A stretch of 63,693 nucleotides of DNA, counting the filler, from Psammoneis japonica (Eukaryota): the NCBI GenBank assembly GCA_008632985.1. It is 3 parts of 3 records of this genome, joined end to end, with 100 filler letters (N's around TTAATTAATTAA, not from the genome) between each part and the next. Parts side by side here need not be neighbours in the genome. Positions count along the whole stretch, not along the records: positions 1 to 28,450 come from QPGO01000406.1; 2 more parts are not named here. One strand, given 5' to 3'. This document shows, one piece after another, positions 1-31,124 of this stretch. The notes beneath the pieces are model-generated. The model was not told the DNA's origin, made no database searches, and was given only the letters and a program-made list of their open reading frames with translations. The stretch's first letter is position 1. Each line of letters begins with the position of its first letter. Position numbers and translations under genes: made by a program.

Positions 1-934
1 GTGAGGAAATGGAGCCAGAAGAAACAAGGCCTGCCCCTTGGCACACGAAGCCAAAGAAACAACAAGTGTCTTGGGGAGACGACAGAATCATTCGGTTCAA
101 CGATTTGTGCAAAGAGGTGACGAAAGACAGAGACTCAAAGGAGGGCAAGGAGTTTGAAAAGTGGCATGCGGAGATCAAGAAAAGCGAGTGCGAGAAGTCC
201 GGAGAAGCAAAGAAGAAGAAAAAGATGGCACCGACCGGCAATGCAGAGAAGGTGAAGGCAATGAACAGCCCAATGGTGGAGAGCAGCAGGGACGACAATG
301 GCAACGACGATGAGCAGGAGGAAGGCACAAAAGGCAAAACGAATGATGGAGGAGACGAGTCCGATGGAGACTTGTCCGATTGAGACGAGTCCAATGGCGA
401 CGAGTCCGATGATGATCATTGGCTTGGTTTGAGAGTGTTGCAGCAAGAAAATGTGTGCACAGTTGACACGGCACTCGGTCATTGCACTGCAGACGTAACA
501 AGGGATTGACTTGACCGATGAAATGCTTTTCTTGTTTAAAACAATGTTTGCAAAAATCAACAAACCAAGGTTTGTGCGGCAATGCAATCACGCATTGGCA
601 TGTGGCAACAAGGTGGAGGCAGAAATGGTGATGTGGATGTGGTGAAATTAGCGCACACAATTGTTGACAATTCATTGCAATGTTGGTGCACCAAACTTGC
701 AACCAGAGGTTGGCCTGACACCATGTGACAACAATGTTTTGCAATGTTTTGATGATTTGTCATCATGTGAGTCTGCCCCTTTTTACCATTTCATGCACTC
801 TGATGAGCAACACAGGCATCGAACACTGCAAGCCAGCAAGCAGGCAGAGAGGCTGTTGTTGGCAAAGAAAAATCACAGGTGTGGATGTCTTGCTTCATGG
901 GGGGATGTGGGGCACCTGCCGGCAGCTCGCAGGC

Positions 935-2052
935 ACGAAGACTGCTTTAAAAAACAAAAACATCTCACCAGATTGTGTCATCTGACTGTCCATTGCTCGC
1001 ACGACGTGAAAACTGCTTTAGAAAATGAAAACATCTCACAGGATTGTGTCATCTAACTGTCCATCGCTTGCGCATTTCACGTTGCGCAAGGTTTAGACGT
1101 GCGACGTGAAAACTGCTTTAGAAAATGAAAACATCTCACTGGATTGCGTCATCCAACTGTCCATCGCTCGCGCATTTCACGTTGCGCAAGGTTTAGATGC
1201 GCGACGTGAAAACTGCTTTAGAAAATGAAAACATCTCACTGGGTTGCGTCATCTGACTGTCCATCGCTTGTGCATTTGCACGTTGTGCAAGGTTTAGACA
1301 CGCGACGTGAAAACTGCTTTAGAAAATGAAAACATCTCACTGGATTGCGTCATTCAACTGTCCATCGCTCGTGCATTTCACGTTGCGCAAGGTTCAGATG
1401 CGCGACGTGAGAACTGCTTTAGAAAATGAAAACATCTCACTGGATTGCATCATCTGACTGTCCATCGCTCGTGCATTTCACGTTGCGCAAGGTTTAGACG
1501 CGCGACGTGAAAACTGCTTTAGAAAATGAAAACATCTCACCAGATTGCGTCATCTGACTGTCCATCGCTCATGCATTTCATGCTGCACAAGGCTTAGATG
1601 CGCGATGTGAAAACTGCTTTAGAAAATGAAAACATCTCACTGGATTGCGTCATTTGGCTGTCCATTGCTTGTGCATTTCACATTGCGCAAAGTTTGGACG
1701 CGCGACGTGAAAACTGCTTTAGAAAAATCTCACTAGATTGCGTCATCTGACTGTCCATCGCTCATGCATTTCACGTTGCGCAAGGTTTAGATGCGCGACG
1801 TGAAAACTGCTTGAGAAAATGAAAACATCTCACTAGATTGCGTCATCTGACTGTCCATCGCTCGTGCATTTGCACGTTGCGCAAGGTTTAGATGCGCGAT
1901 GTGAAAACTGCTTTAGAAAATGAAAACATCTCACCAGATTGCGTCATCTGACTGTCCATTGCTTGCGCATTTGCATGCTGAGCAAGGTTTAGATGCGCGA
2001 CGTGAAAACTGCTTTTAAAAAACAAAAACATCTCACTGGGTTGCATCATCTG
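935..2052. repeat. Tandem array, ~100-bp unit, ~10-11 copies
   Basis: Unit cgacgtgaaaactgctttagaaaatgaaaacatctcactggattgcgtcatctgactgtccatcgctcgtgcatttcacgttgcgcaaggtttagatgcg recurs at about 1002, 1102, 1202, 1303, 1403, 1503, 1603, 1703, 1796, 1896 and 1998. Confidence 0.95.
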
Positions 2053-2379: not shown

Positions 2380-3240
2380 TTGAATTTTTTGCTGCTGCAG
2401 ACGGGACCAGCATTCATTGATGCAGATTGCGTCAGTTGCGTTCAGCGTTCAGCAACCAAACCAAAAGCCATGAAACACAAATCGGAGTTAGAGCGTCTTG
2501 CCCCATTCAACAAATCTGGAGTCGATGATCACACAGTGTTGTCCCTGAAAAACATGATGTCCGAGCGACAAACACGAGGACGCAAAACTCGATTGAATTG
2601 CGTGGAGTGGTTGTCTGCCAGCGGTGAAGACAAACATCCAAGCAAGCCAACCATTTTCATCCGTCAAGGCCCAGCACCGCGGTGGCACTCAACCGCTGCA
2701 TCCCACTTCCTCTGGCATTTTAAGATTGGAGGAGACAATTGGAAATCAAGCAAAGTTGCTGATTGGATTGCGGATGAAGGTGAGGTGGGTGATGGATGCT
2801 TTGCACCCCACCTGTGCGAGTGCTTCCTGAGTGAACATTTGCACAGCGACCGCAGGCCCAGCATCCTCCCATTGTTGTTGAGGGCCAAGGAAAATGCTGC
2901 AAGAAAAGCAATTGCCTTTGTCAACGTAAAGAAGGGGCAATGTGTCGCTCATTTCGACAGTGACAGCTCCCTCCTTGTTGTGCCAAAAGGCAAAAAGATG
3001 GCAAAGATTCTCAAACGGTCCATCAGCGAGTCCTGCAGCTCACAAAGGGGGTCTGAGCATCGCTCAAGGTTCGACTGCACAGACCCATGGAACTTGCCTC
3101 CAGGGAGACATGAGGGCGAGTGGGCCACAGCGGTGTTGGACGCAGGGAATGCATTGTTCATCCCCCAGCATTGTTTGCATGCAGCAAAGAGTGAAGATGG
3201 CACAGTTGCCATCTCCTTTCAAGTTGAGTTTGCTCCATGA
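2380..3240 (+). pseudogene. JmjC/cupin-like 2OG-Fe(II) oxygenase relic (TpA-mutated)
   Basis: HxD motif in 'AHFDSDSSLLVVPKGKK'. The distal His strand 'VLDAGNALFIPQHCLHAAKS...VAISF' fits the JmjC pattern L.PGD.LYIP..W.H.V.S. No Tyr in 286 aa. Confidence 0.65.
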
Positions 3241-5299
3241 GACAACAACCCAAGTGATTGATTTGGTTGCTTTCCAGTGTAGCTGAGCGTTCATTGTCAG
3301 CAGAGAAATTAAATTAAGAAACAAAATTGGCTCACTTTGGCATGGAGACGGCAGTGCAAAGCCACACCAAAATCTTGGGTTGGCCCTGCATGTGCCAGCT
3401 TTAGTTGACTTCCTGCTGCACTTGCACACATTGCCCCAGCCTCCACTCTAGGCCCTGCTCCAGCAGAGTGGTGGCCAGCTGGAGCAGCTGCTCCAGAGCC
3501 AGAGAGCAGCTAGAGTGGCTCTCTACTCTCTCAAGAGCAAGAGCACAGCACGGCAGTGGAGAGCAGCTGCTGCTGCTCTCTCAGCCACTCTCTGCTGCAG
3601 CACTGCGTAGGAGCAAGGCAGTCTCCCCTGGCTGCTGTGCCGGTGCCCGCAAGAAGAAATCCAGTGTGCGACGACAGCACACTGTGTTCTGTCCATCGTC
3701 AGACCGGAGCGAGACAGAAGTGACGCAGAGAGTCCAGGAGGCTGACACCGTGCCTTGACACCTTCGAACCTGGTGTCATGTCACGAGGCTCTCTGTCCAC
3801 TCACAACATGCCCACGTTGCAAGTGTCAAACATCAAAACGCCATCAAGCATCAACTGTGCCATGAGAATCAACTCATCTTCTGGCAGCGACAACGACAAC
3901 GCAGCGCATCTAGAATGTCGACTGAGAGGAGTGCAAACGCCAACATCCAAAGAGTGTCATGTTGGTGTCCATTCATCCAACAACAAGGGAGTGGTGTGCT
4001 GCAAGAGAACAATTGAAGCAACCACTGGTTTTCCCAGGGTTCCATCAGAGGACAGCATCGTGGATGATGAATTGAGTCCAGATGAACATCCACCTGACCC
4101 TGACCACCCGAGCCAACATTTCTCACATGAGAGCTCAGCCGACGCTCAAAGACATCAATTTCTGTCGGGGCCCATTTGTCAACGCATTGTCCATGAATGG
4201 GAAATGATGGGGCATGAAATCAAACTGCACAACAAAGTGCACGAAGAAATGCGCAAGCTGTTGGTTGGTGAACGGCGAAATCCAGCAGAGGTTGCCGTTT
4301 TAGATGAGGATGAAATGGAGGATGGATGCGGACACGCAGAAGAAGACATGCCAACATTTGCATGTCAGGCAATCCGCACCAAACAAGTTTGCTTTTCCGT
4401 GGATACATTGATCCGTGAAACTGCCCTTTGTCCGCACTTTCACGACAGTCATTTTCCCGAAATCAGCCCTGAAAAATGACTGCAATGCCAGTGCTGGTGT
4501 CACCGCTTGCTGCGCGCCGATTCCAAGCATGAAAGCCATCGGCTCAAGCATTGCAAGATGAGGAGGGATGCTCTAAACTTGCATTTGTAGGTGTGTTTTA
4601 CAGCAGCTCATTCTTTTGCAGTCAGCTTCAAAAACAAGCATCTGGTTTCATCAGCTGTTCCTTTGGTTGCGCCAGAATGTCGCAGGAAATGATGACCCTC
4701 CACTCTGGGCCTGGCAAATGAAAATGCAACCCCTTCCCCTGGATTTGACATCACAAATCCTGCGCACAGCTGGTTTCGTGTTGGGATGTTGTGGCAGCGA
4801 TGGTGGCTTTCCCAAGGCACTTTTTTCACTGTGCCCGGGATGGGCTTGGTTGACTAGAGCAACAGCCCTTGGGTTCACAACCTCGGCCATGGTGGCCATG
4901 GTGTGCCGGCACTGTTGGAGAGCAAGTGCGTGCCACCGACAGCTCGCTTTGTGCAGTTTTTGGCACAAAATCCACAACAACGGAAATGCAGTGTTCGCGG
5001 CCTCATTGGTCGGTGTTCTGAATGACGCAATCATGTGATGTGATTGGCTGTGAGGTGTGTCCAATCTCCATCTTTAATGCAGCAATGCACAACAATGATT
5101 GGAAACAAAAGCAGACGAGGTTCGCGGCCATCATGTGCTGCACAGGTGCATTCTGCACAAATGTCCACTGCTGCTCGTGAGTCGGTGTTCGGGAATGACG
5201 TCAATCGTGCGATGTGATTGGCTGGGAGGTGTGTCCCCTCCCATGCACACATTGGTGCCTGGAAACAAACATGTCAACAGGCTCTTGCACGGTGAAGGG

Positions 5300-7214
5300 A
5301 TGGTGCTCGCTCCATGGCGAGGTGCCACCGGCATTCAGACACCATTGTCTCAAAAAGCACAACAAGACAGAGTCATGCCCCCATTGGATTTCAAGATTGC
5401 GGATGGAAAAATGATGACTCAGGAGGTTGTTGGCTCTGTCCATGAACGGCATGGTTTGTCATCCAACGTCTTGTGCTTGGGCATGTCACACGCCTGTGTC
5501 AAGGAGCAATTGGCGGCCAGGGGTGTGTCGTGGTCTGCCATTGACATCAAGGAAGCCGGCTTGGAACAAACTGTGGAGCTGGTTTGTCGCAATGTGTTGA
5601 CAGAAATTGACGGTCGTGACTTGGCTCGGTGTCAGTCGATGGAGATCTTTGGGATGGAGGCTCGCAAGGTCTCTCTGGAAAGCGGAGCGTGCTGTGCCAA
5701 AAATCATTTGAGCGCAAATTTCAACAGAGTTTTCCTTTCTGAATAAGATCAACAAAAATTGGAGCAAGATGACTTTTCGGCAAATCATTCTGGACTGCTT
5801 TTGGATTCCTCAAGGGACTTCGGCCATGGCACACTGGCAGCGCTCATTCTTTCATGTGGCATTGCCAGGGTTTGTGCAGAGAGGGCTGTTGGAGTTTGCC
5901 TCGGCAACTCACGACAGCAATGGATTGGGAATTGGAAATGTCTGTCTGCCTTTTTGCTGTCATTGTGTCAAGCACATTGTCTCAGGTTTGAAGGTTCTTT
6001 CCAAGCACCACACGATTTTGTTTGCACGCAAATCAGAACTCGGAGAACATGCGCTCTGGGCTGGCACATCCAAGATTTGCCCAAACACCATGCAAGAAGT
6101 GCTCAGGAAGAAGTTGAGCCAGGAAGAAGTGCACTGCACATTTGCATCCAAAGATGTGAAGGGGGCCATTGAAGATGAGCATGTTGCAAAGGAGGAAGTC
6201 GTTCGTGTGCTAGAGTGTGTCGAAGACTTTGCCAATGTGAGAATGATTCGATTGAGGCCATTGCCGATTCACAGTGCAAAGCGCGGCAAGCAAAAGGTCT
6301 CAGGAAAGGTGTTTGGGATAAATGTTGGGGGATTTGAGGGTCTTAAACCGGCCAAAGAAGTCAAGCACGGGTGTCATGATGCCTGCAAATCAGACGAGTC
6401 ATTGACGGAGTCATTGACGGCTGCAACAGCTTCTCACAAGGTGTCTGATCAAGAATCTTTGGTTGGCGCATCTCCTGAGGTTTCTGATCAAGAATCTTGG
6501 ATCGACGTGTCCGATGAGAACTCTCCAAGTGGAGCGCATGGACCGCACGATAAATGCACTTCACCCAAAAAGGCGGGTCGACCTCCGAAGAAACGAAATG
6601 TTGCATTTTCGCCCATGAGGGGTTTCAAAACAACTTTGCCCTACTTTCCAGTGTGCATGATTCCATTGAAGGCATTGGCGATTCACAATCCAAAGCCCGG
6701 CAAGCACAAGGTGTCAGGCAAGGTGTTTGGGACAAATGTTGGGAGTTTTGAGGGTCTCAAGCCGGCCAAAGAAGTCAAGGACGCGTGCCATGATGCCAGC
6801 AAATCAGACAAGTCATTGACGGCTGCAACAGCTTCTCCTGAGGTGTCTGATCAAGAATCTTTGGTTGACACATCTCCTGAGGTTTCTGATCAAGAATCTT
6901 GGATCGGTGTGTCCAAATGCTCTGCACCCATCTCTGTTCGCATGTCTTTGGGTGATGACTGGCGCATGACGGAGGACAACATGACGAACATCACCACTCC
7001 CAGCATGCGGATCAGGGATGCCTTCAATGAGAACTGTCCAAGCGGAGCGCATGGGCCGCACAATGGATGCATTTCACCAAAAAAGGCAGGTCCACCTCAG
7101 GAGAAAAGAAGGGTTCCATTGTTGCCCATTCACAGTTTCAAAACAAATTTGGTCTGCCCTGGATGGCAAACCTGTCATGTGATCTGCAGCAGCAGCGGGA
7201 GTCGAAATGGCTGA
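5300..7214 (+). pseudogene. Decayed gene with possible Rossmann methyltransferase-like N-terminal domain and internally duplicated low-complexity C-terminus
   Basis: ORFs 5099-5746 and 5769-7214 join across a stop/frameshift. Motifs VLCLGMS, FRQIILD(C/Y)FW and GNV(C/Y)LPF. Segment ~6290-6620 is repeated at ~6710-7145. Confidence 0.35.
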
Positions 7215-7310
7215 AACTGTGGCACGTGATTGGCAAATTGGCAACAGCTTCATGATTCAGCAGGTGCTCTTTCTGTGTCAACTGCATGAGAAGCAATTGC
7301 GCGCATCTTC

Positions 7311-7413
7311 GTGCGATTTACACCGACGCAGAGAATGCTAAAAAAGTCTGATCACTCCCAAATTGGGAGCGATTAGATTTTTTTAGCTGTCTCTGCATCT
7401 GTGTAAATCGCAC
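7311..7413. repeat. 103-bp near-perfect palindrome (51-bp arms, 1-nt loop)
   Basis: Left arm 7311-7361 matches the reverse complement of 7363-7413 at 44 of 51 positions. Confidence 0.95.
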
Positions 7414-8329
7414 AAAACATGTGCCCTCATTCATGTGCACAGCACTGCTGCGGTGTGCAGACAGACTTTGCCACCAGCTACGTCACCTTTTGCCTGCCAC
7501 ATGCGTCATCCAGTCTGTTGAGATCTGTCAAAGCGAATCTACAAAATCTCATGTTCTTTGTGGCATGTTCAATGAACAGAAACCCCATGATTCCGTTGAT
7601 GCAGATTTTGCACCAGAACCCACACATTCGAGCGACTTCGACCGCAAATGTTGCTGTTCTCCTGCACAACAACAAAAAAAAAACAGCCATGGCAAGCGAA
7701 GACGAACATCCTGTGGTCACAATGGCCAAGGCTGTTAAAAGCAATTGCTTTCCGACTGAAGAGAAGCGCTGTCGCGACAAGTGGATCGAGTTCCTGTCAG
7801 AAGCCGGCCTTGCAGAACAATGCCTGTCTTGGTCCAATGGTTCCACGAAAAAAAAGAAAGGGTGCAGGTGCATGAAAAGAGCCTTCCATCCTGTGATCTC
7901 TCCTGAGAGCAACTCTCCAGGAGCCCCGCCCAAAAGTTTTTGGATTTGTTGTTTTCGAATGCTTCGGTGCTTTCTTCTGACAATGGAATGCTTTCAACAA
8001 TCGTCCCTCTGATCGAAAAGGGAAAACATGGTCTTTTTCTCAAAGCAAAACTGCTGGCACAAGCCGGCGTGTTCTCCTCAACAGGAAAAAACAACTGCAG
8101 CGCAAAGTGCATGTGGATTTGTCTCCCAGGCACCGAGGATGTCGTTGTTTGCCAAAATGCATTCTGCCACACATTCAACCTCAGAAGGTCATGGTGGCAA
8201 AAAAACAAGGGATTCGGCCATGGCTCAAGCTCCTGCAGCTTCTGCTGATGCCAGGGTTCTTGTTGCCGGGGCTCTTGCAGCTCCAACTCAAGCCAGCAAG
8301 CGGAGATGGTGGGAGGCAGTGACTCTCAT

Positions 8330-9600
8330 GACTCAAGCCCCTGCTCTGACCCCTGTTCCGACTCTAGCTGCTGTTCCTGAATTTACCACCAAAGCTTTTG
8401 CTTCCACCGGGGCGGAAGATGGAGTTGCAGCTGTGGCCCCGGCTCAAGCTCCCATGACTCAAGCACCTGCTCCAACTCCAGCCACTGTTGCTGAAGCTGC
8501 AACTGCAGCTGCTGCCACTGAAGCTGCTTTTACTTCTGCCGGAGCTGCTGCAGCTCCAAATGCAATGATGCAAGATGGAATTGCAGCTGCGGCCCCGGCT
8601 CAAGCTCCCACAACTCAAGCACCTGCTCCAACTCTAGCTGCTGTTGCTGAAGCTGCAACTGCAGCTGCTGCCACTGAAGCTGCCACCGACACTTTTACTT
8701 CCGCCGGAGCTGCCACAGCTCCAAATGCAATGATGGAAGATGGACTTGCAGCTGCGGCCCCGGCTCAAGCTCCCACAACTCAAGCACCTGCTCCAACTCT
8801 AGCTGCTGTTGCTGAAGCTGCAACTGACGGGCTCCAGTCCCAGGTGGGACTTTTTGTGACATTTGCCCCGTGGAATTCTGCGTGCAAGCTCTGTGGTTCG
8901 CACTCTGGCCAATGGACATGTTCATCTTCAACATAAAATGAACGGCCAAGTTTGCAGTGCATGTGTCTCTGTCCGCACTCGAAGTTTTGGACAATGCGCC
9001 TGCCCCACTCCATTCTTAAGACACTTGAGAATGGCGCAGAAGAAAAAACATTAAAAGTTGTTGAATGGATCGCCTGACAATTGCACCATAAAATGATGCA
9101 AAATTTCGCCAAAATCACATGGAAATGTACATGCGCGACACACGACGCGAATCAAAAAACTGTCGATGTCACAGTTCAGCAGTGCAAGGTCCCACCTAGA
9201 CCTGGAATGCGTCAACTGTGGCAACTGCCACTGAAGCTGCCACCGACGCTTTTGCTTCTGCCGGAGCCACCACAGCTCTAAATGCAACGACGGAAGATGG
9301 AATTGCAGCTGCAGCCCCGGCTCAAGCTCCCACAACTCAAGCTCCCACAACTCAAGCACCTGCTCCAACTCCAGCTGCTGTTGCTGAAGCTGCAACTGTG
9401 GCCACTGCCACCGAAGCTGCCACCGACACTTTTGCTTCTGCCGGAGCTGCCACAGCTCCAAACGCAACGACGGAAGATGGAATTGCAGCTGCGGCCCCGG
9501 CTCAAGCTCCCACAACTCAAGCCCCTGCTCCAACTCTAGCCACTGCCACTGAAGCTTTCACCAACGCTTTTGCTTCCGCCGGCCCGGCTGAAGCTCCTGC
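8330..9600 (+). repeat. Coding tandem repeats (Ala/Thr/Pro-rich), interrupted by MITE copy 1
   Basis: Repeated 'EDGIAAAAPAQAPTTQAPAPTLAAVAEAATAAAATEAA' units lie on both sides of the 8827-9212 insertion. Confidence 0.85.
8827..9212 (+). mobile_element. MITE-like non-autonomous DNA transposon, copy 1
   Basis: Imperfect TIRs ACGGG(C/T)TCCAGTCC..GGTGGGAC / GTCCCACCTAGACCTGGAA.GCGT. 6-bp TSD caactg at 8821-8826 and 9213-9218. Three other copies occur in the window. Confidence 0.9.
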
Positions 9601-10225
9601 AGCTTTTACAGATGCCGCTTCTGATCCACTGTGGAAAGCTCACAATCCTCAGCCTTGCTCTAAAATGGGTGGTGCGCCCATTCTTTTAGATGGAGTTAAG
9701 TGGGAAGAACTGGAGCAAAAAGGAGAGCTCCAACCCCTTCCATCACCTCCTCCAATGCTTGAATTGCAAATGCCAGCAAGCTGCAGCTGGACTTGTGATG
9801 CGACTCGTCACGTTGTGTGTGACAAATTTGGCTCCAAAGAACCGCNNNNNNNNNNNNNNNNNNNNNNNNNNNNNNNNNNNNNNNNNNNNNNNNNNNNNNN
9901 NNNNNNNNNNNNNNNNNNNNNNNNNNNNNNATCCCCTGTCAGTGGTGGAAACTTGGGATCGCAGGTTTGGGAAGGACGGAGTCCAAAGAAGATCAGTCGT
10001 TGCTCTGGTGGATCCTCCAAAATTCAGGAAAAAGTGAGAAAACGAAAGCGTTCACGACGATCAAAAAGTTGCAATGAGGTCACTGAGCTGCAAAAATTGT
10101 CACGGGAATGGACATGTCCGCGCTCTACAACAACGAATGTGACGGAAGACCTTTGGGTTGACCCTTCCTCTGTGGCTGCAGGAGCCTTTTCGAAAAGTCC
10201 AAGCAAGTGTTGATTGCCAAAGCGA

Positions 10226-10395
10226 GTTCTCACGGCAACCCAGGAAAATCAGGACGGGTCGTTGTCAGAGCACCAGTTGGCATTGACGGTCGAACCCTCT
10301 TTCATTGCTGGTTCTCACGGCAACCCAGGAAAATCAGGACGGGTCGTTGTCAGAGCACCAGTTGGCATTGACGGTCGAACCCTCTTTCATTGCTG
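10226..10395. repeat. Exact 85-bp tandem duplication
   Basis: 10226-10310 is identical to 10311-10395, and the duplication shifts the reading frame. Confidence 0.9.
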
Positions 10396-11732
10396 GTGCC
10401 GGCTGTGGCTTGTTTGTGACCTGCGCCGGGCCGCTTCAGTTGTGGCGTGCCCCAGGGCATGTTGACCTTGGGAAGTGTGGCCCACATCATGCTGAGGACA
10501 TCAAGAATCAAGTGACGATGGAGATGAAGAGTTTTGTTTTCGAGAACAAACCCAGTGAGTGGAGCTTCGAAGGTCCTCCCAGCTGCAAAGGCAAACCTGA
10601 GTGTAACTTGCATGGCAAGAGTGTGGATTCCAATGTCATGTTTGACACAACATGTGACGAGACGGGCCTCGCACATGAGATGGCGTCAAAAACTCTTCTT
10701 CCATTTGCGAATGAGATCGACAAACCTGCAGACGGAACAGACAGAACAAGTTCAAACAGGTCAAAAGGAAAAACAGGTGGGCCATTCAGTCAGCGGCTTG
10801 ACATTCAAAATGTTGAAGCTCTGCACCACGACAACGGCAGTGTGCATTGTCTTCTTCGCAAAGGGGCAACGCTGCTTGAAGGTGAAAAAACAGAACTCCT
10901 TGTTTGCTGTGGGAACGAGTGTGATGCTGTGCGGAAAATCAAGTGCTCTGTCTGCGGCAACAATGCTCTTGTCAGGCCTGGGAATTCCTTTGTAATCGCA
11001 GGGAACAGCAGTCGCAATGAAGACGGAATTGAAAACAAAGATTTGTCGTCATTGTCTTGTGAGATCACTGATGACAGTGGCGGTCTGCCAGAAGGACGTG
11101 GGTGTGTCCCTCAGCTTTGTTTGAAATGTCGAAGATGCGTGCCTGTCCGCAAGGCTTTAACAAATGAAAGGAGCGGCATGTCCTGTCAAACCATGCATCT
11201 CATCATTTCTGGGTGTCGTGAGGCAGAACTTCACACTGTTCTTGATTTTCTTGTTGGAACCCCCCCACTGCCAGCGTTTTCACAATGGAGAATGATCTGG
11301 GCGGCTCGGTGTGTTCAGTCCTGCACTGCCCAAGTGTGTTGCCGATCGACGAAAGATGGAGTTCCTTTTGAAATCGCAGAAAAGATTCGCAAGGTTTTGC
11401 AGCTCTTCCCTCGAGGACATGGCAGTCAGCATCACACCCAAGACACAGAGGTCAATGATGCTCACAGACTGCTGGGACACTGGATTCGCCTGGACGTTGG
11501 AGAAAACGGAACTCACTCCGGCATGGTGGAAGAAATCGTTTCCTCGCCAACTGCCGCTGCCATCGGAAGGATTCCACATGGATGCGGTGGTGAGCCATCG
11601 CAGTGTCAGCTGGCTAACTTGAGATGTTGGATCTCGTTCCGTGACCTGGACGATGCAGACAGAATCCTCAGTGAGCAAGAGGTTTGTGACAATTTGTTGA
11701 ACAACGTAGACAAGTTTTTCCTTCCGTTCTGA
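10305..11732 (+). pseudogene. SET-domain-like protein relic with possible C-terminal Tudor-like barrel; probably the 3' part of a long gene starting near 7689
   Basis: GAG(C)GLFVT matches SET motif I GAGYGLF. Also 'LLPFANE', and 'ELLV(CC)GNE(C)' matches the SET terminal ELxxxYG..Y once Tyr is restored. Confidence 0.6.
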
Positions 11733-13271: not shown

Positions 13272-14158
13272 TGTCGAAAGACAGACGGCACCAGTTCATC
13301 GAACACCACCATGGAAACCGAAAACCATCCCACATGCAGACACACCAACAAACATGATGCACGCACGACAGGCAATTGGCGAAATTTTCGTTCATTGCTG
13401 TTGGCTGCGGCATGCAGGGCTGCCGCACAGTGCGAGGCAGCATGTCAAAGCAGAAGTTTGATTGCACACGAGGTGTTTCCCCTCTCATGAACATGTCCAA
13501 CCATTGCAAGGTGCAAATTGTCTGAAATTTTGATTGGCTACGAGCGAGCGAGCTAGACCGACGCACGATGGGCAGTTGGCAAAATTTTGATTGGCTGAGA
13601 GGCATTTCCCCGCATTGTGAACATGTGCAATTGTGAAAGGTGTTGATTTGGCTGCCCCCCACGCACGCGCCCCATCCAACCATCATGCATGCACAGAGTG
13701 CCTCTGCAGCACTGTGCAGTGCTAGAGAGCAGCAGGGCCCTGCTCTGCGCAGCAGCGCTGTGGCAGCTGGCTGCTTCTAGCAGAGACCAGCAAGCAGCAG
13801 AGACTGCTCTTCTCTGCTGGCTAGAGAGAGCAGAGCTGGCTGCTCCAGCTGCCACATCAGCATCAGACCCAAGACCCACCATGAGACAAAGCAAACGAGT
13901 GCATCAATCGATCCACCACACGCTCTGAGCATGTGCACCATGAGCATGGAACCGGCTTCTGCCGTGGTCCAGGAGGCAAATGACACGCCTTTGATCTCTG
14001 TGGGGCAGGAGTCGCACTTTGACACTCTTCTCATCTGCTTTGAGATGTCTTGTCGTGAGGTGGCGGCTCCGAGTGAGCAACTTGTGCCAACGTCTGAGTG
14101 TCCCAGCAGAAACCCCCCAAAAACCAACAACACCATGCATGGGAAAAAGGTGCTCACG

Positions 14159-14545
14159 ACGGGTTCCAGTCCTGGGTGGGACTTTTTGTGACATTTGCCC
14201 CGTAGAATTCTACGTGCGAGCTCTGCAGTTAGCACTCTGGTCAATGTGTGCACTTGTCTTCGACATTAAAAAAACGGCCAAGTTTGCAGTGCATCTGTCC
14301 CTGTCCGCACTCAAAGTTTTGGATGATGCGCCTGCCCTGCGCCATTCTTAAAACACTCGAGAATGGCGCAGAAGAAAAAAACATTAAAAGTTGTTCAATG
14401 GATGGCCTGACAATTGTGCTATAAAATTGTGCAAAATTTCGCAAAAATCACGTAGAAATGCACGTGCGCGACATGCGACGCGATTCAAAAAACTGTCGAT
14501 GTCACAGTTCAGCAGTGCGAGGTCCCACCTAGACCTGGAACGTGT
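14159..14545 (+). mobile_element. MITE copy 2 (least mutated)
   Basis: Same TIRs as copy 1. Flanks ctcacg / ctcacc (5/6 TSD match). Retains the internal palindrome CGTAGAATTCTACG. Confidence 0.9.
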
Positions 14546-14707
14546 CTCACCATCGCTTGTGCCATTGCTCATCATGATAAAAAGGAGTGCCCCTTTGGGC
14601 TGAAGGCAAGAAGCAAAATGGCTCCTAAAGGTGGGTTTGGCTAGCCGACAAAGCTGAAAGTCGAGCACTGCTCTTTCAACTGCACTTGCGACGAAAAAGC
14701 CAGAAAG

Positions 14708-16027
14708 ATGCACATGGGTTGGAAAAGAAGACATGAAAAGCATGAGGAGCGTCGCACGAGGAAGAATCGGCAGAGTCATCGTAAAATCTGTCACAACCAT
14801 GCACTTGACAGCAACTGTGACAAGCCGAGCTGCGATTGCTGCAAGACCAAGGATTGCAAGGGAAAGCAGGCCAATGGGGAACGCACCTGTGTGGCGTGTC
14901 AGTCAGGAGCAAAATTGAAGGGCAACAAGTCCAAGCGAGCTAAAATTGTGAAAGGAACAATCCAGGAGGACGATTTGGTGCGGTCGCCACCGTTTCTGTT
15001 CTGGAACCCACGTGAAGGTGAAGAGGACAGGAAACTGCACACAAGGGACCAAGTGGAAGAGTCGCTGCGTGATGTTGCAAAGGTGCTGACCCCCCCCCCC
15101 AACAGAAAACCTCAACGAGACCTGGCCTTTGCTCAAGCTCAGCAAAGACAGATGCATGCCACCCGCCGCCCCTTCGCTTCAAAGCAGAGGATTTGCCTCC
15201 AGCTCATGAGCATGGGATGTTTCGAGTGTTCAGGAGACAGGACGTCACTGATCTGGAAAGGATGAAACTGCTTGGACAGTTGAAAGATGGTGGCAATGGC
15301 ATCTCTGTGAGAGAGTCATGGAGTGAAGGTGACACCCCCCCAAATTGTGCATTTCCTTGGGACGAGTGTCCTGTCTTTGAGGCCGCTCGACTTGGTGCCA
15401 CAGCTCCCGCAACAAAGAACAGGGCATTTGACGCATGCTGTTGTTGTCCGTCGCCCTGACCATCCTGACAAGTGCAACAAGGCTGACATGCAACAACAGA
15501 TTGAAAAGGAACCGGACCCAGAAAAGGTGGCTGAACTTCTGCAAGTTGTGAAGTTTCTGTTGTCCAGCAGGATCTTTCATGCTCAACGAGATGGGCAGCA
15601 ACTGGGCATCACCATCCATTCTCCTCACATTGACACCTGTGGTTCTAGTGCTCTGTTCATCCCATTGCAGGGCATCAGCTTCAATTTTGTTGCATTTTGT
15701 CATGCATCTGAACCCGAAGAGCCGGAATTTCATGACTCTGAGGATTGTCGTGCATGCCTGGATTGGAAGAGGAGTTTGGTGGATGATGAACTGAGAAAGG
15801 TTGAGGCAGCAGAATGTCTTTTCAAGAAGTTTGTCAAAGATGATAAAAGGTGCCACAATCACCATCGCATTCTCACCTTCAAGCTGGACTCAGAAGTGGA
15901 AGGTCAGGCGTTGATGTTTCCGGCTGGGGTTCATCCCCATTTCACAATCATTCCCAAACAGGAGAAACCCCGGATTCTTGGGATCCTTCATGAAAAGACA
16001 ATTAAAAACACACGGCTGACAGTCCAA
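14708..16027 (+). pseudogene. Cys-rich N-terminus plus 2OG-Fe(II) dioxygenase-like (TET/JBP-like) domain, copy 1, frameshifted
   Basis: 'SPHIDT' (HxD) and 'GQALMFPAGV(H)PHFTIIPKQEKPRILGIL(H)EK' (distal His, Arg on the last strand). The inferred ancestral stop TAA is now CAA at 16025-16027. Confidence 0.5.
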
Positions 16028-16790
16028 GAGTCCAGTCAGTGTGGGCAAGCAGATCTCCATCTTTGTTGCTGCCAGATTGTCGCCATTGCCATCATGCAAG
16101 CAGAACCATCACAGCCGCGCATGGGAGCACATCACACCTGCATCATGCATGCACCACACACAGCCGATGCCGACATCACTCTAGCCACTGGCCAGTGCCG
16201 GCAGAGTTGGGATCACACGAAGTTGCAGTGTGGTGTCATCAGCACCATGCATGTGCCATGCGGAGCTGATGCCGACTGCCAATCCAGCTGCTGGCTAGAG
16301 CAGATTCAGGATCACGCGAAGTTGCAGTGTGGTGTCATTGGTGCCACACACGTGCCATGCAGAGCTGACGCCGACCACCAATCTAGCCAGCCACCGATCA
16401 CGTGAAGTTGCAGTGTGGTGTCATTGGCATCATGCATGTGCCATGCGGAGCTGACGCCAACCGCCAATCTGGCTGGAGTGGATTTGGGATCATGCGAAGT
16501 TGCAGTGTGATGTCATCAGTGTCACACATGTGCCATGCGGAGATGACACCGACCACCAATCTAGCTGGCTGCCGATCACGCAAAGTTGCAGTGTGGTGTC
16601 ATTGGCATCACACATGCATCAGACCACATTGCACACAACAGGAGCTGATGCCGACCACTGGCACTGGAGTCGGGACAGGCATCACCCAACGCAGCTGATG
16701 CGGACCACTGCTGCTGGCCAGTGGGGACAGGCATCACCCGAAGTTGCAGTGGTGTCACTGGCATCACACATCACTCAACATGAAGTCCAC
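15421..16790 (+). repeat. Segmental duplication copy A (dioxygenase C-terminus plus ~85-99-bp tandem array at 16200-16760)
   Basis: Colinear with 18859-20340. Array unit gatcacgcgaagttgcagtgtggtgtcattggcatc...ggagctgacgccgaccaccaatctagc. Confidence 0.9.
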
Positions 16791-18858: not shown

Positions 18859-20340
18859 AGGCATTTGATGCATGCTGTTGTCGTCCGTCGCCCTGACCAT
18901 CCTGACAAGGCTGACATGCAACAACAGATTGAAAAGGAACCGGAACCAGAAAAGGTGGCTGAACTTCTACAAGTTGTGAAGTTTCTGTTGTCTGGCAGGA
19001 TCTTTCATGCTCAATGAGATGGGCAGCAACTGGGCATCACCATCCATTTTCCTCACATTGACACCTGTGGCTCTAATTCTCTGTTTGTCCCATTGCAGGG
19101 CATCAGCTTCAATTTTGTTGCATTTTGTCATGCATCTGAACCCGAAGAGCCGGAATTTCATGACTCTGAGGATTGTCGTGCATGCCTGGATTGGAAGAGG
19201 AGTTTGGTGGATGATGAACTGAGAAAGGTTGAGGCAGCAGAATCTCTTTTCAAGAAGTTCATCAAAGATGACAAAAGGTGCCACAACCACCATCGCATTC
19301 TCACCTTCAAGCTGGACTCAGAAGTGGAAGGTCAGGTGTTGATGTTTCCGGCTGGGGTTCACCCCCATTTCACAATCATTCCCAAACAGGAGAAACCCCG
19401 GATTCTTGGGATCCTTCATGAAAAGACAATTAAAAACACGTGGCTGACAGTCTGAGAGTCTGGTCAGTGTGGGCAAGCAGATCTCTGTCTTTGTTGCTGC
19501 CAGATTGTCGCTGTTGCCATCATGCAAGTGGAGCCATCACAGTCATGCATGGGAGCACATCATGCCTGCATCATGCACGCACCACACACAGCCGATGCCG
19601 ACATCACTCTAGCCACCAGCCAGTGCCGGTGGAGTCGGGATCACGCGAAGTTGCGGTGTGGTGTCATTGGCGTTGTGCATGTGCCATGCGGAGCTGACGC
19701 CGACTGCCAATCTAGCTGCTGGCTAGAGCAGATTCGGGATCACGCAAAGTTGCAGTGTGGTGTCATTGGAGCCATGCACGCACCATGCAGAGCTGACGCC
19801 GACCACCAATCTAGCCAGCTGCCGATCACGCGAAGTTGCAGTGTGGTGTCATTGGCATCACACGTGCACCATGCAGAGCTGACGCCGGCCACCAATCTGG
19901 CTGGAGTGGATTTGGGATCACGCGAAGTTGCAGTGTGATGTCATCAGTGTTGTGCATGTGCCACATGGAGCTGACGCTGACCACCAATCTAGCTGGCTGC
20001 CGATCAAGCAAAGTTGCAGTGTGATGTCATCAGCATCATGCGTGCACCATGCAGAGCTGACGCCGACTGCCAATCTAGCCAGCTGGCAGATTCGGGATCA
20101 CGCAAAGTTGCAGTGTGGTGTCGTTGGCATCATGCACGCACCATGCGGAGCTGACGCCGACCACCAATCTAGCCAGCTAGCTGCCGATCACGCAAAGTTG
20201 CAGTGTGGTGTCATCAGCATCACACATGTGCCATGCGGAGCTGACGCCGACCACTGATCTAGCCAGCTGGGACAGGCACCACCCGAAGTTTGCAGCGGTG
20301 TCACTGGCATCGTGCATTGCTCAACATGAAGTCCACCAAT
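18859..20340 (+). repeat. Segmental duplication copy B (second dioxygenase fragment and longer ~85-99-bp array at 19600-20330)
   Basis: Near-identical to 15421-16790; the differences concentrate at TA/TG/CA and CG/TG sites. Confidence 0.9.
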
Positions 20341-26000: not shown

Positions 26001-28427
26001 TCTTGCCATGTGCCCATCATTGTCAGCGGTTTCCGCCTTCAGGAACTCCGTTGACAGGCCCATCGCCTCTCCCTGTGCGTTTTCAGCCAAATTGTTCAGC
26101 ACTGTGCAGCTGCGAAGGACTTTTCCTTCTTCTCCTTCTCCCAACTCCGTTGCAAACAAGACTCGCAATCCCTCCGGCAGGGTGGGCTCAGATTGGCGGG
26201 ATCTTCTGATGATGCGTTCCAGCCCCAGGTGGGGCTCCGTGTGACATTGGGCCCGCAGAATTCTGCGTGCGAGCTCCGCAGCACAAGAATTCAATCAATG
26301 GACACACTTGTCTTCAACGTCAAACAAACGGCCAAGTTTGTGGCACAATTGTGCCTCTCACCACTCGACGTTTTTGCAAATGCACCTGCCCCACGCGATT
26401 CTCAAGACATCGCAGAATCGTGCTGCAACAAAAAATGTCAAAAGTTTTTGGACGGATCGCTCAACAAGCACACCGCAAAATGACACAAAACATCAAAAAA
26501 TCACGTAGAATTCTGCGTGCGCGACATGCGACGAGATTCAAAAAACTGTCGATGCCACAGTTCAGCAGTGCGAGGTCCCACCCAGACCTGGAACGCGTCT
26601 GATGACTTGCTTCAGCATTTCGGCGGACTGGCTGTAAAAAACAAAATTCGTGGACAACATCATTGGCCCGGCAATGCTGGCCCTTTCTCTCGTCGGCTTT
26701 GTGCTGTTGTGCAACCCAGGACATTTCCTTTCACGCAAGGTTTGGGTCATTGCATCGGCGAACTTTCCTGCTTTGTCAACATCACCACCCAGCTTGAGGT
26801 TCCTGTTGGTGTCCTCCCTTGCCTTTTGAACCACGGCCTTTGCAGATTCGCAATTGGAAGTGAGCAGATGCTTGAGCACCACTTTCCCAAGTTTCTCGCG
26901 CGCTTCAATGTGCTTGACGCTGTCGCTGCCTTTCTCCTCCAGTTGCATCGCCTCCTCATCTGTGACCAACTTCCTGCATCGCAGCTCACCCAACATCCAT
27001 TTGTGCGTGTTCAGTTGCGCGTCGTCCTCAAAGCTTTGCCTTGAACCTGATGTGGTGTCGGCTTGGATGACCTCGCTGTGTCTTTTGCAGAGGAACAAAC
27101 TTCTTTCCCCAAACAAACCAAGCTTGATGTGCGGTTGGGATTTTTCTTCAACGCACGGTTGTTCACAGTTCAATTTTTTCCCCAACAACTCACTGAATTG
27201 CCTTGGGGGAAACATCTGCGTCAGTGCCAGGTCAACGCCCAACACGCGGCACTGTCCATCGAGGAAGGAGTTCCAAATGGCTGCAGCTGCTTGTGACATC
27301 AGCTTGCATTCCAACATGAGAACAGATTTGTTGCGTGTCGTCTTGTTCTTGTGGTGTGCGAAAGGGGCGAAATTTGCATTTTGAATGATGAAAGTTTGGC
27401 ACAAGATGTTTCGCAATCTTTTGTGCAAGGATTCAAAATCAGCCATCTTCCTCAAAGAATTGTGTTGTTGACCCAAAAGCACATGAAGTGTGCATGTCAG
27501 GAAAAGTCCCTTCTGCCGACTGTTCCAGTTGTCTTTCACATTTGTCGATTGCGCCCTTGTGCCCGCATTGTCACCCTCCATCTTGGCGTGTGTGAGCAGT
27601 GCAAACAGCCCGAGCGCGTGTTCCTTGGCAACAAAAAATGCGCCGGCATTGCTCGAACTTGGTTTGCTGTGATCACGGCAGAGCTCATGAGCCGGAAGCA
27701 CCTTTCCAAATTTTGCAGTTTGATGTGTGACCAAGTGGGGCGTCACTGTGTGCGGCACAATGTTGAATGATTTGCTGGAAAGCCCATGCGCACTCTGCAA
27801 AGTCCCCACATGGTTCTTGTCAGAGACAGGCGCAAGCGGGTTGCAATCTGGGTTGTAGATCTTTTCGTTGTTGGCATGCCTTTGGTTGACATCTGGTTGA
27901 CTGAGAGGACACATGGCTGCAACATCGCGGTTTCTTGCACAAGTCACCCCCGCGAACAGAGAGATGACCACCGGACTGACGTTTGCATTGACCCTGTTGA
28001 AGTGATCTCCCATGTCTGCCCCCTTTTCTCTGTTGTTCTTTCGTTTGTTCATCAGTTTTTCCCAATCTTCGTTGGTGAATTCCTCCAGTTTGAAGGGGAC
28101 ACCTTTCGACAGGGGACATGACGGCGGCTTCAATTTCTTGAAGCACTCGTCATCTGATTTCACATCCCCCATCGGACTCTTTGGCGCTGTTGCGTCCTTC
28201 ACGATCACTTTGCCACAAATGACCCTGAAAATGGTGTGCACCTGCTCCGCTGTCAATTCTTCATCAATCGGCGAGATTTTGTTGTGGGCTGCTGCCACAC
28301 ACCCTGGACTGCCCATCTCTTGCAACATCAAGGTTCCCACCAAATTTCCAATTGCACATTCTTCGCCGACCAGGTCTTTCATCATTTCCCTGTCATCCTC
28401 GCTGATGGCTGCGCAGAATCTCAACAC
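23030..28427 (-). pseudogene. Large decayed protein-coding region of unknown function, interrupted by MITE copy 3
   Basis: Successive protein-like minus-strand ORFs (26562-28427, 25878-26205, 24400-25614, 23410-24378, 23030-23755) with an acidic/basic low-complexity C-terminus. No family recognised. Confidence 0.5.
26212..26598 (+). mobile_element. MITE copy 3
   Basis: TIRs ATGCGTTCCAG / CTGGAACGCGT. Perfect 6-bp TSD ctgatg at 26206-26211 and 26599-26604. Confidence 0.92.
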
Positions 28428-29515: not shown

Positions 29516-31124
29516 TCAGCTTGTCTGATGCATCATTGTATGACCCTCCAAATCAATGGCCACTAGTCTTTCTTTCGCCTTGCCTCCATCCGAAATAAGC
29601 ACCATATTTCCTCCTCTATCCGCATCTTCATGCCGGAAACCATATTGTGTTTCCAAGGCATTGAGAATGTCACCCCAGGCAGACACGTCATCCACTCCAG
29701 CTTTTGGAACGCGACCAAGCTGCAAACCGAGGAATTTGATTCCACCCGACCAAGATTCTGACAGGAAAAGCGGCGTCGGCACAAGTTCCCCCCATGCGTC
29801 TTTCAGTTTCAGGTACGCTGAGATTTCACTGTCAAACCACTCGTAGCCGTCCTTCCCAACATCAAATTGTTTCAGCGCAACCCGTTGTGTGCGCCATGTC
29901 GCTAAATGGACAACTCCGTTGTGTCCACATCCAATGGGTTCGATTATTTTTATCTCATCAAAGGAATCTTGGGCAACACGTCATTTTCAATTGAGGCAGT
30001 GTTCATTTGGGGTCCGTTATCTGGGGTCATTTCTACTTCCTCTGATTCTTCGTCAATTGTTCCGCCAGAGCGTAGTCCGGGTGTCCTGCCTTTTGCAGGA
30101 GGGGTTGGCTTTTCTTTGCTTGTTACATTCCAGGTGATTGAGAAGGAACAAGAGGTTCATCCGATCCACACCCCAATGAATTCAGATAAGTCCAGGCACG
30201 TAAGAAGTTGTGTTGGCCAACAAAGATTGCGTCGCTAATAAAAACTCGAGCATTAGAGCCATCACCTTCAATTTTGACAAAGTATGATCGTGTGGCAGAT
30301 GACAGCGCACCATACCGTCGTCCATTCTCGACCATGTATCCAAGAAGCTGTCCGATAGGATGACATACACGTGACCACAAAGGCGTTCGGCCGGAATCCT
30401 CCGTGTATACTTTTTGATAAGAATTGTTGTAATCATGTACTATTTCTTCGGCACTCATAGGCAGTGGAAGATTGTGCGTTGACTTGAACTCAACAATCAC
30501 CGCAACATCAGCCGGACTTGGAATATAAGCAATGTCATTGTTGTCACCGTCAGTGCTTTGCTTCAGAATCAAGGCATCTGGCTTTCCGATTCCACCAACC
30601 TTGGTGATCTTCCCCATGATTCCGTTACGCACCAACGCGTACTTCAGGATGTTCACCAGAAACGTTTCTTCCTGAAGTTCATCAGTCAACGGCATTCCGG
30701 AGTTGCTGTATCTACTAGCAGTATCGAAGACATCACACCTACGATTGAGCTCTTGATGGGTTGGATTGAACGCTTCCACTTCCGTTCGAAAACTGACCCA
30801 CGACGTGATCGTTGTGGGATATCGCCGCCCTCGTCTACTTTCATTGAGCTTGGATCTCGAGCTCGTGAATTGCACTCCTAGATTAGGAGTCATGATACGC
30901 TGTTGCAACAGCATGTCCGACGTTGTTACTCTTGGGGCCTCGGCGGATGATTCGTAGTGATTTTCTACTTCCGGCAATCGTGCTTGCCATTGCTGACGTT
31001 CATTGATTTCCGCTGGCGTCAAACTATCGACAGGTAAACTATCAATTTTGCTCAAATCGAGATTGAACAGCACGCCTTGGTTCGACCGTTCGTCAAAAAA
31101 TCGGTAATAATCATCATGATTCAT
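29516..31124 (-). pseudogene. PD-(D/E)xK restriction-endonuclease-fold domain fused to a protein-kinase-like domain (Crinkler-type REase+kinase), with two frameshifts
   Basis: REase motifs 'GKPDALIL...VIVEFKS...IGQLLGYMVENGRRYGALSS'. After frameshifts near 30140 and 29960 the frame reads 'IGCGHNGVVHLATWRTQRVALKQFD...HEDADRGGNMVL...LVAIDLE' (Gly loop, VAxK, HxD..N, DxE). Confidence 0.75.

What the first reader, a model, noticed from the sequence alone, without database searches (positions are those of the whole stretch)
935..2052. Tandem array records independent two-strand hits at the same TpA sites
Homologous positions in sister units read cactAGattg (1731, 1831), cactGGattg (1137) or cacCAGattg (1538). 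A second site reads atctAact (1051), atctGact (1251) or atcCAact (1151). A third reads tttAGa, ttCAGa (1393) or tttGGa (1693). TA, TG and CA alleles at one site are what a TA ancestor gives when hit on either strand after amplification.
Basis: seen in the sequence. Interest (0 to 1): 0.75.

Follow-up and report, generated by a model that had tools for sequence, protein, structure and literature searches.

The report
Minisatellite recording TpA-erasing mutation
A 100-base tandem repeat in a diatom-like genome carries TA, TG and CA versions of the same positions, most likely a local trace of a mutation process that rewrites TA to TG or CA across the surrounding repeat DNA, though two of the three sites could still be old CG sites.

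Summary
In detail: every allele and coordinate is as written. It is not chance. Of 17 non-CpG pyrimidine-purine sites in the unit, 4 vary at both positions, 0 at one and 13 at neither (exact P 1.3e-4).

- **Site 3** (TTTAGA; TA 8, CA 1, TG 1 of 10 units) is a TA ancestor hit once on each strand after amplification.
- **Site 1** is probably the same, at 10 to 26 to 1.
- **Site 2** depends on the model, from 48 to 1 for TA down to 0.5 to 1.
- No outgroup copy was found.
TG plus CA alone is therefore not diagnostic.

In context, the window has TA at 0.16 of expectation and TG and CA near 1.6, with normal gene islands between erased domains. TA followed by a pyrimidine is almost gone, and every TA in the array is of the slow YTAR class.

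This scan noted the same process on other DNA of this genome. The only description I found is a 2026 preprint on Bigelowiella natans.

The parts
941..2052 (+). 100-base tandem array: 12 units (first 71 bases, last partial). The two edge units share the variant TTTAAAAAACAAAAAC where interior units read TTTAGAAAATGAAAAC.
969..2038 (.). Site 1, context C-YR-G, one dinucleotide per unit: 969 CA, 1040 AG, 1140/1240/1341/1441 TG, 1541 CA, 1641 TG, 1734 TA, 1834 TA, 1935 CA, 2037 TG (first base given).
   Evidence: A TA ancestor is favoured 10:1 to 26:1.
983..2052 (.). Site 2, context C-YR-A: 983 TG, 1054 TA, 1154 CA, 1254 TG, 1355 CA, then TG at 1455, 1555, 1655, 1748, 1848, 1949 and 2051.
   Evidence: The ancestor depends on the model.
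1094..1990 (.). Site 3, TTTAGA: TA in 8 of 10 units, CA at 1395-1396, TG at 1695-1696.
   Evidence: A TA ancestor hit once on each strand after amplification.
955..2024 (.). Fourth two-allele site (alignment column 15): TG in 9 interior units, CA in both edge units, no TA or CG allele.
   Evidence: Ancestor unresolved: log10 ratio 0.2-0.5.
600..782 (.). High-copy dispersed repeat left of the array. Summed contig depth is 4,500-10,900 per bin, against about 30 for array contigs. Its copies differ from the window by paired TG/CA changes at the same dinucleotide.
   Evidence: tables 2 and 3
806..912 (.). Left flank that, with 2061 onward, also exists elsewhere without the array. One contig of depth 96.5 joins 912 to 2061 with 22 other letters between.
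   Evidence: tables 5, 5c and 8
2380..3240 (+). Open frame with weak JmjC/cupin similarity (E 2.5e-4, below the Pfam cut-off). It has 0 Tyr, 14 His and 10 Cys in 286 residues. Probably a TA-erased gene relic beside the array.

Best explanation
The feature is a 100-base minisatellite inside a repeat-rich, TA-erased domain of a diatom-like nuclear genome. Its units differ mainly through two strand-symmetric, dinucleotide-targeted transition processes.

1. CpG to TpG/CpA decay acts at 10 sites. Cytosine methylation is the presumed cause, but that is inferred.
2. TpA to TpG/CpA conversion acts at one certain site (site 3), one likely site (site 1) and one or two possible sites (site 2 and column 15).

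The second process is the local, unsaturated trace of a domain-wide TpA-erasing hypermutation. That process has removed about 87% of the TA expected in the non-genic DNA of this window. It prefers A in 5'-TAY-3' over 5'-TAR-3' by about 4-5 fold in fitted intensity. Every TA in the array is of the slow YTAR class, which is why the array still shows TA, TG and CA side by side.

The chemistry is inferred, not shown. The leading idea is deamination of adenine to inosine, on either DNA strand, by a TadA/ADAT-like enzyme directed at repeated or silenced DNA.
For: **Shown in the array**
- Both-or-none variation at 4 of 17 non-CpG YR sites (P 1.3e-4).
- Site 3 has TA 8, CA 1, TG 1 of 10 units.
- Fitted rates on the unit trees: TpA 3.0-8.6, CpG 4-6, ordinary C>T 0.55 and ordinary T>C 0.3, in tree units.

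**Shown in the window**
- Observed/expected is TA 0.16, CG 0.57, TG 1.59 and CA 1.58.
- Erased domains with TA 0-0.27 alternate with islands at TA 0.33-0.68 and CG near 1.
- Budget against island composition: TA -1522, CG -949, TG +1016, CA +1357.
- RTAY survives at 7 against 467 expected, and YTAR at 119 against 305.
- In 12 duplicate pairs elsewhere in the window there are 85 CA|TG double mismatches, where homogeneous CpG decay predicts about 11 from 117 CG|CG and 102 single differences.
- An 86-base repeat family shows the same pattern at a CTAG site: TA 8, TG 2, CA 1 of 11.

**Precedent**
- In the Results and Discussion of Mettrop et al., 230 of 231 de novo mutations in the two integrated viral regions of B. 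natans are A>G or T>C, and the authors state that all of these fall on TpA. They propose an ADAT2-like deaminase.
Against: - The polarity at sites 1 and 2 rests on a simple model over unresolved trees. With a free site-specific CpG rate, site 2 gives no preference (log10 ratio -0.3).
- A TA ancestry needs four YTAR sites in one 100-base unit. Island composition predicts about 0.6 (from the counts).
- TA retention would then be very uneven: 11 of 12 and 8 of 10, against 2 of 12 and 1 of 12.
- The island baseline used for the budget and for the context fit is coding DNA and may not represent the original repeats.
- No enzyme, no methylation data and no de novo event was seen here.
Confidence: 0.7

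Rival explanations
1. Sites 1 and 2, and column 15, were CpG sites. Each was deaminated on one strand in some unit lineages and on the other strand in others. The CG allele was then lost by unit turnover, and the TA alleles arose later by ordinary G>A or C>T transitions. On this reading only site 3 involves TpA.
For: - CpG decay is intense in this array: 9 of 10 CpG sites vary and 5 of 10 show CG+TG+CA.
- In the 86-base family CG retention runs from 10 of 12 down to 1 of 12, so complete loss is conceivable.
- With a free rate, the CG root fits site 2 as well as the TA root does.
- In unmutated island DNA, CCGG and CCGA outnumber CTAG and CTAA: 24 and 29 against 17 and 13.
Against: - No CG allele is left at any of the three sites, while every recognised CpG site keeps CG in 3 to 10 units.
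- Both minority TA alleles fall in the 3 TG+CA sites and none in the 12 monomorphic TG/CA sites (about P 0.04).
- The shared-rate likelihood favours TA by a log10 ratio of 1.5-1.7 overall.
- A new TA would arise in a domain that is actively losing TA.
Confidence: 0.22
2. The three-allele sites are coincidences of independent single-base transitions in a transition-biased array, with no dinucleotide-targeted process.
For: Sixteen of 80 non-CpG columns carry a transition, so some adjacent pairs are expected.
Against: All 8 variable positions within non-CpG YR sites form 4 complete pairs, with none single (exact P 1.3e-4; permutation 0.00096).
Confidence: 0.02
3. The direction is the reverse: a RIP-like C>T change at CpA/TpG is creating TA alleles from TG and CA.
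For: TA is the minority allele at sites 1 and 2.
Against: - TA is depleted rather than enriched: 0.16 in the window and 0.26 in the array.
- TG and CA at one site cannot both be ancestral.
- At site 3 TA is the majority and CA and TG are singletons.
- None of the 12 monomorphic TG/CA sites has gained a TA.
Confidence: 0.02
4. The variants are assembly or read errors in a collapsed repeat.
For: The window is a draft with six runs of N, and tandem arrays are hard to assemble.
Against: - X1 contigs with 0 differences span 1625-1756, 1834-1917 and 1986-2254, including TA, TG and edge-unit alleles.
- Errors would not be confined to complementary transitions at YR dinucleotides.
Confidence: 0.02

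Closest known systems
TpA hypermutation of integrated giant-virus and virophage DNA in Bigelowiella natans (Mettrop et al., bioRxiv 10.64898/2026.01.13.699255; I read the abstract, Results and Discussion)
   Same: - A:T>G:C changes confined to TpA, giving TpG or CpA according to the strand.
- Confined to particular non-host or silent regions.
- Long-term signature of low TpA with high CpA+TpG.
   Different: - There it was seen directly in mutation-accumulation lines and in viral inserts of a chlorarachniophyte. Here it is inferred from standing variation in a tandem array and from composition in a diatom-like genome.
- Erasure here is far deeper: TA observed/expected is 0-0.27 per kilobase, against Rho 0.45 for their viral region.
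- Here it co-occurs with CpG loss and shows a TAY>TAR neighbour preference, which the sections I read do not report.
Repeat-induced point mutation (RIP) of Neurospora and other ascomycetes (features recalled; also named as the comparison in the preprint's Discussion)
   Same: Strand-symmetric, dinucleotide-specific transitions that riddle repeated DNA and spare single-copy genes.
   Different: RIP changes C to T at CpA and so enriches TpA. Here TpA is destroyed and CpA/TpG enriched, which is the opposite direction and a different base.
CpG decay by deamination of 5-methylcytosine
   Same: It gives TG and CA alleles at one site through hits on either strand. This is demonstrably at work at 10 sites of this array.
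   Different: It leaves CG as the third allele, not TA. It cannot explain site 3 or the loss of TA in the window.
Adenosine deaminases acting on polynucleotides (TadA/ADAT2-ADAT3, ADAR)
   Same: - A to I reads as A to G.
- The natural tRNA target A34 follows U33, and in bacterial tRNA-Arg it is followed by C (recalled).
- A TadA-derived editor variant prefers YAC (passage in PMC13109818).
- The window shows TAC and TAT hit far more than TAA and TAG.
   Different: No deaminase gene was sought or found here, because no genome is held. Activity on genomic DNA in this organism is conjecture.

Membership tests
TpA-specific A:T>G:C hypermutation (B. natans type) | Changes fall on TpA and give TpG or CpA | tested here: met
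   - Site 3: TA 8, CA 1, TG 1 of 10 units.
- Fitted TpA rate 3.0-8.6 against 0.3 for other T>C changes; this rests on few events.
- Window budget: TA -1522 with TG +1016 and CA +1357.
TpA-specific A:T>G:C hypermutation (B. natans type) | Spectrum almost exclusively A>G and T>C | tested here: not met
   In the array CpG transitions are at least as common: 9 of 10 CpG sites vary. In the window CG loss (-949) accompanies TA loss. A second process is superimposed.
TpA-specific A:T>G:C hypermutation (B. natans type) | Confined to particular regions (foreign or repeated DNA) while ordinary genes are spared | tested here: met
   One-kilobase profile: islands at 28-32, 44-47 and 51-55 kb have TA 0.33-0.68 and CG near 1, and the rest has TA 0-0.27. 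An island ORF has diatom homologues and 21 Tyr in 490 residues. The ORF beside the array has 0 Tyr in 286.
TpA-specific A:T>G:C hypermutation (B. natans type) | De novo events at an elevated rate in real time | not testable with these tools
   Needs mutation-accumulation lines or pedigrees.
CpG decay (5mC deamination) as the source of sites 1 and 2 | A CG allele is present in some copy or in an outgroup | tested here: not met
   - 0 of 12 units carry CG at site 1 or site 2.
- No outgroup was found in the window, in X1 contigs or in one metagenome scan.
- Absence of an outgroup is not proof.
RIP | C>T at CpA, leading to TpA enrichment in repeats | tested here: not met
   TA observed/expected is 0.16 in the window and 0.26 in the array.
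Minisatellite / tandem repeat | Head-to-tail copies of one unit | tested here: met
   Period 100, 10.6 copies, 89% matches.

The most novel reading that the evidence does not exclude
The array is a still-running recorder of a repeat-directed adenine-deaminase-type DNA mutator in a diatom. The mutator would hit A in 5'-TA-3' on either strand and prefer TAY, like the U33-A34-C35 context of TadA/ADAT. It would be the same system as the one just seen in the rhizarian Bigelowiella, and so an old genome-defence mechanism of the SAR lineages that mirrors fungal RIP. The array's slow-class YTAR sites would then offer a natural clock for its activity.
Probability: 0.35. Interest if true: 0.85.

Novelty: new member of a known kind. 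Interest (0 to 1): 0.6.

Why it matters
A mutator that rewrites TpA in repeated DNA would be a genome-defence principle opposite in direction to RIP. In my five searches the only description I found is one 2026 preprint, in an unrelated alga.

Tandem arrays such as this one matter because they catch the process unsaturated, with ancestral TA and both products side by side. They also allow its rate to be compared with CpG decay in the same DNA.

The TAY-over-TAR preference seen in the window gives a concrete biochemical prediction for the responsible enzyme.

There is also a practical point. TA loss removes TAA and TAG stops, which fills such DNA with long false open reading frames. The window has 27 ORFs of 250 or more residues. 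None of the 30 frames I scanned reached a Pfam cut-off, and 26 had no match at all.

Tried and rejected
**Searches for an outgroup copy**
- Whole-genome search: no genome is held for this window.
- nhmmer with the unit profile over the window: nothing outside the array below E 0.02.
- Two short inverted look-alikes of part of the unit lie at 4246-4285 (70% over 40 nt) and 5019-5045 (81% over 27 nt). In the alignment they read TG or AT at site 1 and CA at site 2. They lie in the same erased DNA and are too weak to serve as outgroups.
- The hit at 39201-39265 (E 0.02) did not look homologous.
- One scan of metagenome contigs with a degenerate 33-letter pattern gave 0 hits.
- Run X1: within the array only two variant positions were listed (1171 and 1198), so no second array was seen. 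Runs X2 and X3 had nothing laid, which is no evidence either way.

**Protein outgroups for polarity**
- Pfam on 30 long frames found no transposon domain.
- The JmjC-like frame at 2380-3237 found no homologue at E <= 0.001 among 655 candidates. I therefore could not run a Tyr-to-Cys/His test against relatives.

**Other steps that gave little**
- The 23-base arrays: my anchor recovered only 17 units. There was one CG/TG/CA site and no TA site, so they were uninformative.
It was rewritten and run.
- Taxon from the protein Atlas was ambiguous: haptophyte/chlorophyte DUF218 clusters at 0.88, and ascomycete hypothetical proteins at 0.97. One search settled it better: 9 of 120 hits bear an organism name, 8 of them diatoms and 1 truncated.
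- Literature: five searches found only the B. natans preprint for TpA>TpG/CpA hypermutation. One search was a syntax error and was redone.
- The search for a TadA sequence context gave one review passage on a YAC-preferring variant. PMC10953296 used 'YAC' in another sense.
- The preprint's supplements are closed. Its Table S2 may list flanking bases that bear on the TAY preference.

Full report
**What is there**

Positions 941-2052 hold a tandem array of a 100-base unit. Tandem Repeats Finder gives period 100, 10.6 copies and 89% matches. I cut it into 12 units. The first unit is 71 bases and lacks about 29 bases of the unit. The last is partial. Both edge units share a variant (TTTAAAAAACAAAAAC) where the ten interior units read TTTAGAAAATGAAAAC. 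Every string and coordinate in the finding is correct.

The allele counts are as follows:
- Site 1 (C-YR-G): TG 6, CA 3, TA 2, AG 1 of 12 units.
- Site 2 (C-YR-A): TG 9, CA 2, TA 1 of 12.
- Site 3 (TTTAGA): TA 8, CA 1, TG 1 of 10.

**Is it more than chance?**

Yes. The unit has 17 pyrimidine-purine sites that never read CG. At 4 of them both positions carry a transition, at 0 only one does, and at 13 neither does. If the 8 variable positions were placed at random among the 34, the chance that they form 4 complete pairs is 1.3e-4. Shuffling all 16 variable columns among 80 non-CpG columns reached 4 pairs in 0.00096 of 200,000 trials. These sites therefore behave as hypermutable, strand-symmetric dinucleotides. 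That fits a CG or a TA ancestor and nothing else.

The array is also full of CpG decay. Of 10 CpG sites, 9 vary, and 5 carry CG, TG and CA together. TG plus CA at one site is therefore not by itself a mark of TpA. The third allele is what matters. It is CG at those five sites and TA at sites 1, 2 and 3.

**Context**

The window is very unusual. Observed/expected is TA 0.16, CG 0.57, TG 1.59 and CA 1.58. The 1-kb profile shows three islands (28-32, 44-47 and 51-55 kb) with TA 0.33-0.68 and CG near 1. The remainder has TA 0-0.27, often with 0-2 TA per kilobase.

One island ORF has 120 homologues. Nine of these rows bear an organism name, 8 of them diatoms and 1 truncated, and the best identity is 44%. 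The genome is therefore diatom-like, as earlier notes of this scan say.

Scaling island composition to the 50,433 erased bases gives TA -1522, CG -949, TG +1016 and CA +1357. Losses and gains balance, and TA accounts for about 62% of the loss.

The loss depends on neighbours:

| Context | Left in erased DNA | Expected from islands |
|---|---|---|
| RTAY | 7 | 467 |
| YTAR | 119 | 305 |

A log-linear fit gives a per-strand intensity for A in 5'-TAN-3' of 0.40 (TAA), 0.52 (TAG), 1.64 (TAC) and 2.34 (TAT). The caveat is that the baseline is coding DNA.

The array sits in erased DNA, with flanks at TA 0.08 and 0.11. It keeps TA at 0.26-0.27 and CG at 1.28-1.33. Every TA in it, fixed or polymorphic, is of the slow YTAR class (TTTAGA twice, CTAGA, CTAAC). 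That would explain why conversion here is incomplete and still visible.

**Independent replicates in the window**

In 12 duplicate pairs outside the array I counted 85 sites where one copy reads TG and the other CA. There were 117 CG|CG sites, 102 single CG differences, 14 TA|TA sites and 37 single TA differences. With one CpG rate, the CG counts predict only about 11 such doubles.

In the 1,199-base duplication (15423-16621 against 18860-20049, 91.6% identical) there are 23 doubles, 26 single CG differences, 25 CG|CG, 3 single TA differences and 6 TA|TA.

A three-copy 390-base element shows TA as the third allele at 2 sites that hold both TG and CA, and CG at none.

An 86-base repeat family has a CTAG site reading TA 8, TG 2, CA 1 of 11. 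This is the same picture as site 3.

Copies of a high-copy repeat at 600-782 differ from the window by paired TG/CA changes (table 3).

**Polarity at the three sites**

No outgroup could be found:
- no genome is held;
- there is no further copy in the window;
- one metagenome scan gave 0 hits;
- X1 contigs laid at 80% likeness list only two variant positions inside the array.

One X1 contig of depth 96.5 joins 912 to 2061 with 22 other letters between. Contigs unique to the array have depth of about 28-35. The flanks therefore seem to exist about three more times without the array. This is inferred from depth.

I then modelled each dinucleotide as a four-state chain (CG, TG, CA, TA). The tree was built from the other columns, with the root position averaged over branches. 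I used the maximum-likelihood tree and 100 bootstrap trees. Those trees are poorly resolved, with support of 1-44%. The log10 likelihood ratios for a TA root over a CG root were:

| Site | Shared rates, ML tree | Shared rates, bootstrap median | Free site-specific rate, ML tree |
|---|---|---|---|
| All three unresolved sites | 1.70 | 1.53 (range 0.04-4.90) | not run |
| Site 1 | 1.41 | 1.41 | +1.0 |
| Site 2 | 1.68 | 1.07 | -0.3 |
| Column 15 | 0.51 | 0.42 | +0.2 |
| Site 3 | not run | not run | +1.9 |

The free-rate column is the best case for a CG ancestor.

A separate argument points the same way. The two minority TA alleles both lie in the 3 sites that hold TG and CA, and none lies in the 12 monomorphic TG/CA sites. 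That gives about P 0.04 if they were ordinary secondary transitions.

Against the TA reading, four YTAR sites in one 100-base unit is more than island composition predicts (about 0.6). TA retention would also be very uneven among sites.

My estimates for a TA ancestor are: site 3 about 0.97, site 1 about 0.85, site 2 about 0.6-0.8, and column 15 open.

**Mechanism**

What is shown is two strand-symmetric, dinucleotide-specific transition processes. One acts at CpG and one at TpA, and the second matches the composition of the whole domain.

What is inferred is that the TpA process is enzymatic deamination of adenine, read as G, on either strand of repeated or silenced DNA. The only published parallel I found is the B. 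natans mutation-accumulation study. There, 230 of 231 de novo mutations in the two integrated viral regions were A>G or T>C. The authors state that all of these fall on TpA, and they propose an ADAT2-like deaminase (abstract, Results and Discussion read).

The TAY preference seen here recalls the U33-A34-C35 context of the natural TadA substrate (recalled). It also recalls a YAC-preferring TadA editor variant (passage in PMC13109818).

Five searches for other descriptions found none.

**Verdict**

As a phenomenon this is a new member of the kind described in B. natans, here in a diatom-like genome and recorded in a minisatellite. This scan noted the same process in other windows of this genome. 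I re-tested it here on this window's own DNA.

The array adds an unsaturated view, with ancestral TA and both products together, and a within-array rate comparison with CpG decay. It does not add a decisive polarity test.

Noticed in passing
window 1-63693: TA stands at 0.16 of expectation over the whole window. Sharply bounded islands with normal TA and CG lie at 28-32, 44-47 and 51-55 kb. Several 1-kb bins hold no TA at all: 23-25 kb, 39-40 kb, 57-58 kb, 60-61 kb and 62-63 kb.
   Followed up: yes
window, erased DNA outside 28-32, 44-47, 51-55 kb: TA survival depends on its neighbours. RTAY is almost gone (ATAT 0, GTAT 1, ATAC 3, GTAC 3), while YTAR survives best (TTAA 40, CTAG 35, TTAG 25, CTAA 19). 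The fitted per-strand intensity is TAT 2.34, TAC 1.64, TAG 0.52 and TAA 0.40.
   Followed up: yes
window 15423-16621 and 18860-20049: A 1.2-kb duplication, 91.6% identical, whose commonest difference class is TG in one copy and CA in the other: 23 such sites, against 26 single CG differences and 3 single TA differences.
   Followed up: partly
window 16211-16660 and 19639-20270: An 86-base repeat family with many TG/CA two-allele sites and one CTAG site reading TA 8, TG 2 (16470, 19898) and CA 1 (16285).
   Followed up: partly
window 8826-9213, 14158-14546, 26210-26599: A dispersed element of about 390 bases in three copies, holding 7, 10 and 1 TA. There are sixteen sites where the copies split between TG and CA.
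   Followed up: partly
window 912 / 2061: An X1 contig of depth 96.5 joins 912 to 2061 with 22 other letters in place of the array. The flanks seem to be a low-copy repeat, and only this copy carries the array.
   Followed up: partly
window 600-782: A very high-copy repeat, with summed contig depth up to about 19,600 at single positions. Its other copies differ by paired TG/CA changes, and a few contigs imply CG or TA intermediates.
   Followed up: no
window 2380-3240 (+): A frame with weak JmjC/cupin similarity (E 2.5e-4), with no tyrosine in 286 residues but 14 His and 10 Cys. Island ORFs have 21 Tyr in 490 and 14 in 333. No homologue was found in one search.
   Followed up: partly
window, all frames: There are 27 ORFs of 250 or more residues, many overlapping on both strands. 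None of the 30 frames scanned reached a Pfam cut-off, and 26 had no match at all. They are most likely artefacts of the loss of TAA and TAG stops.
   Followed up: partly
window 36001-42000: Strand asymmetry in a deeply erased block: CA 826 against TG 613, TA 9, CG 97, with C>G and A>T on the + strand.
   Followed up: no
window 30123-31121 (-): A 332-residue island ORF whose nearest Atlas clusters (score 0.97) are hypothetical proteins, mostly from ascomycetes. One cluster at 0.92 has SPOK2_N on 11% of its members. This is odd for a diatom-like genome.
   Followed up: no
window 4246-4285 and 5019-5045: Short inverted look-alikes of part of the array unit (70% over 40 nt and 81% over 27 nt). They may be relics of the sequence the unit came from.
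   Followed up: partly
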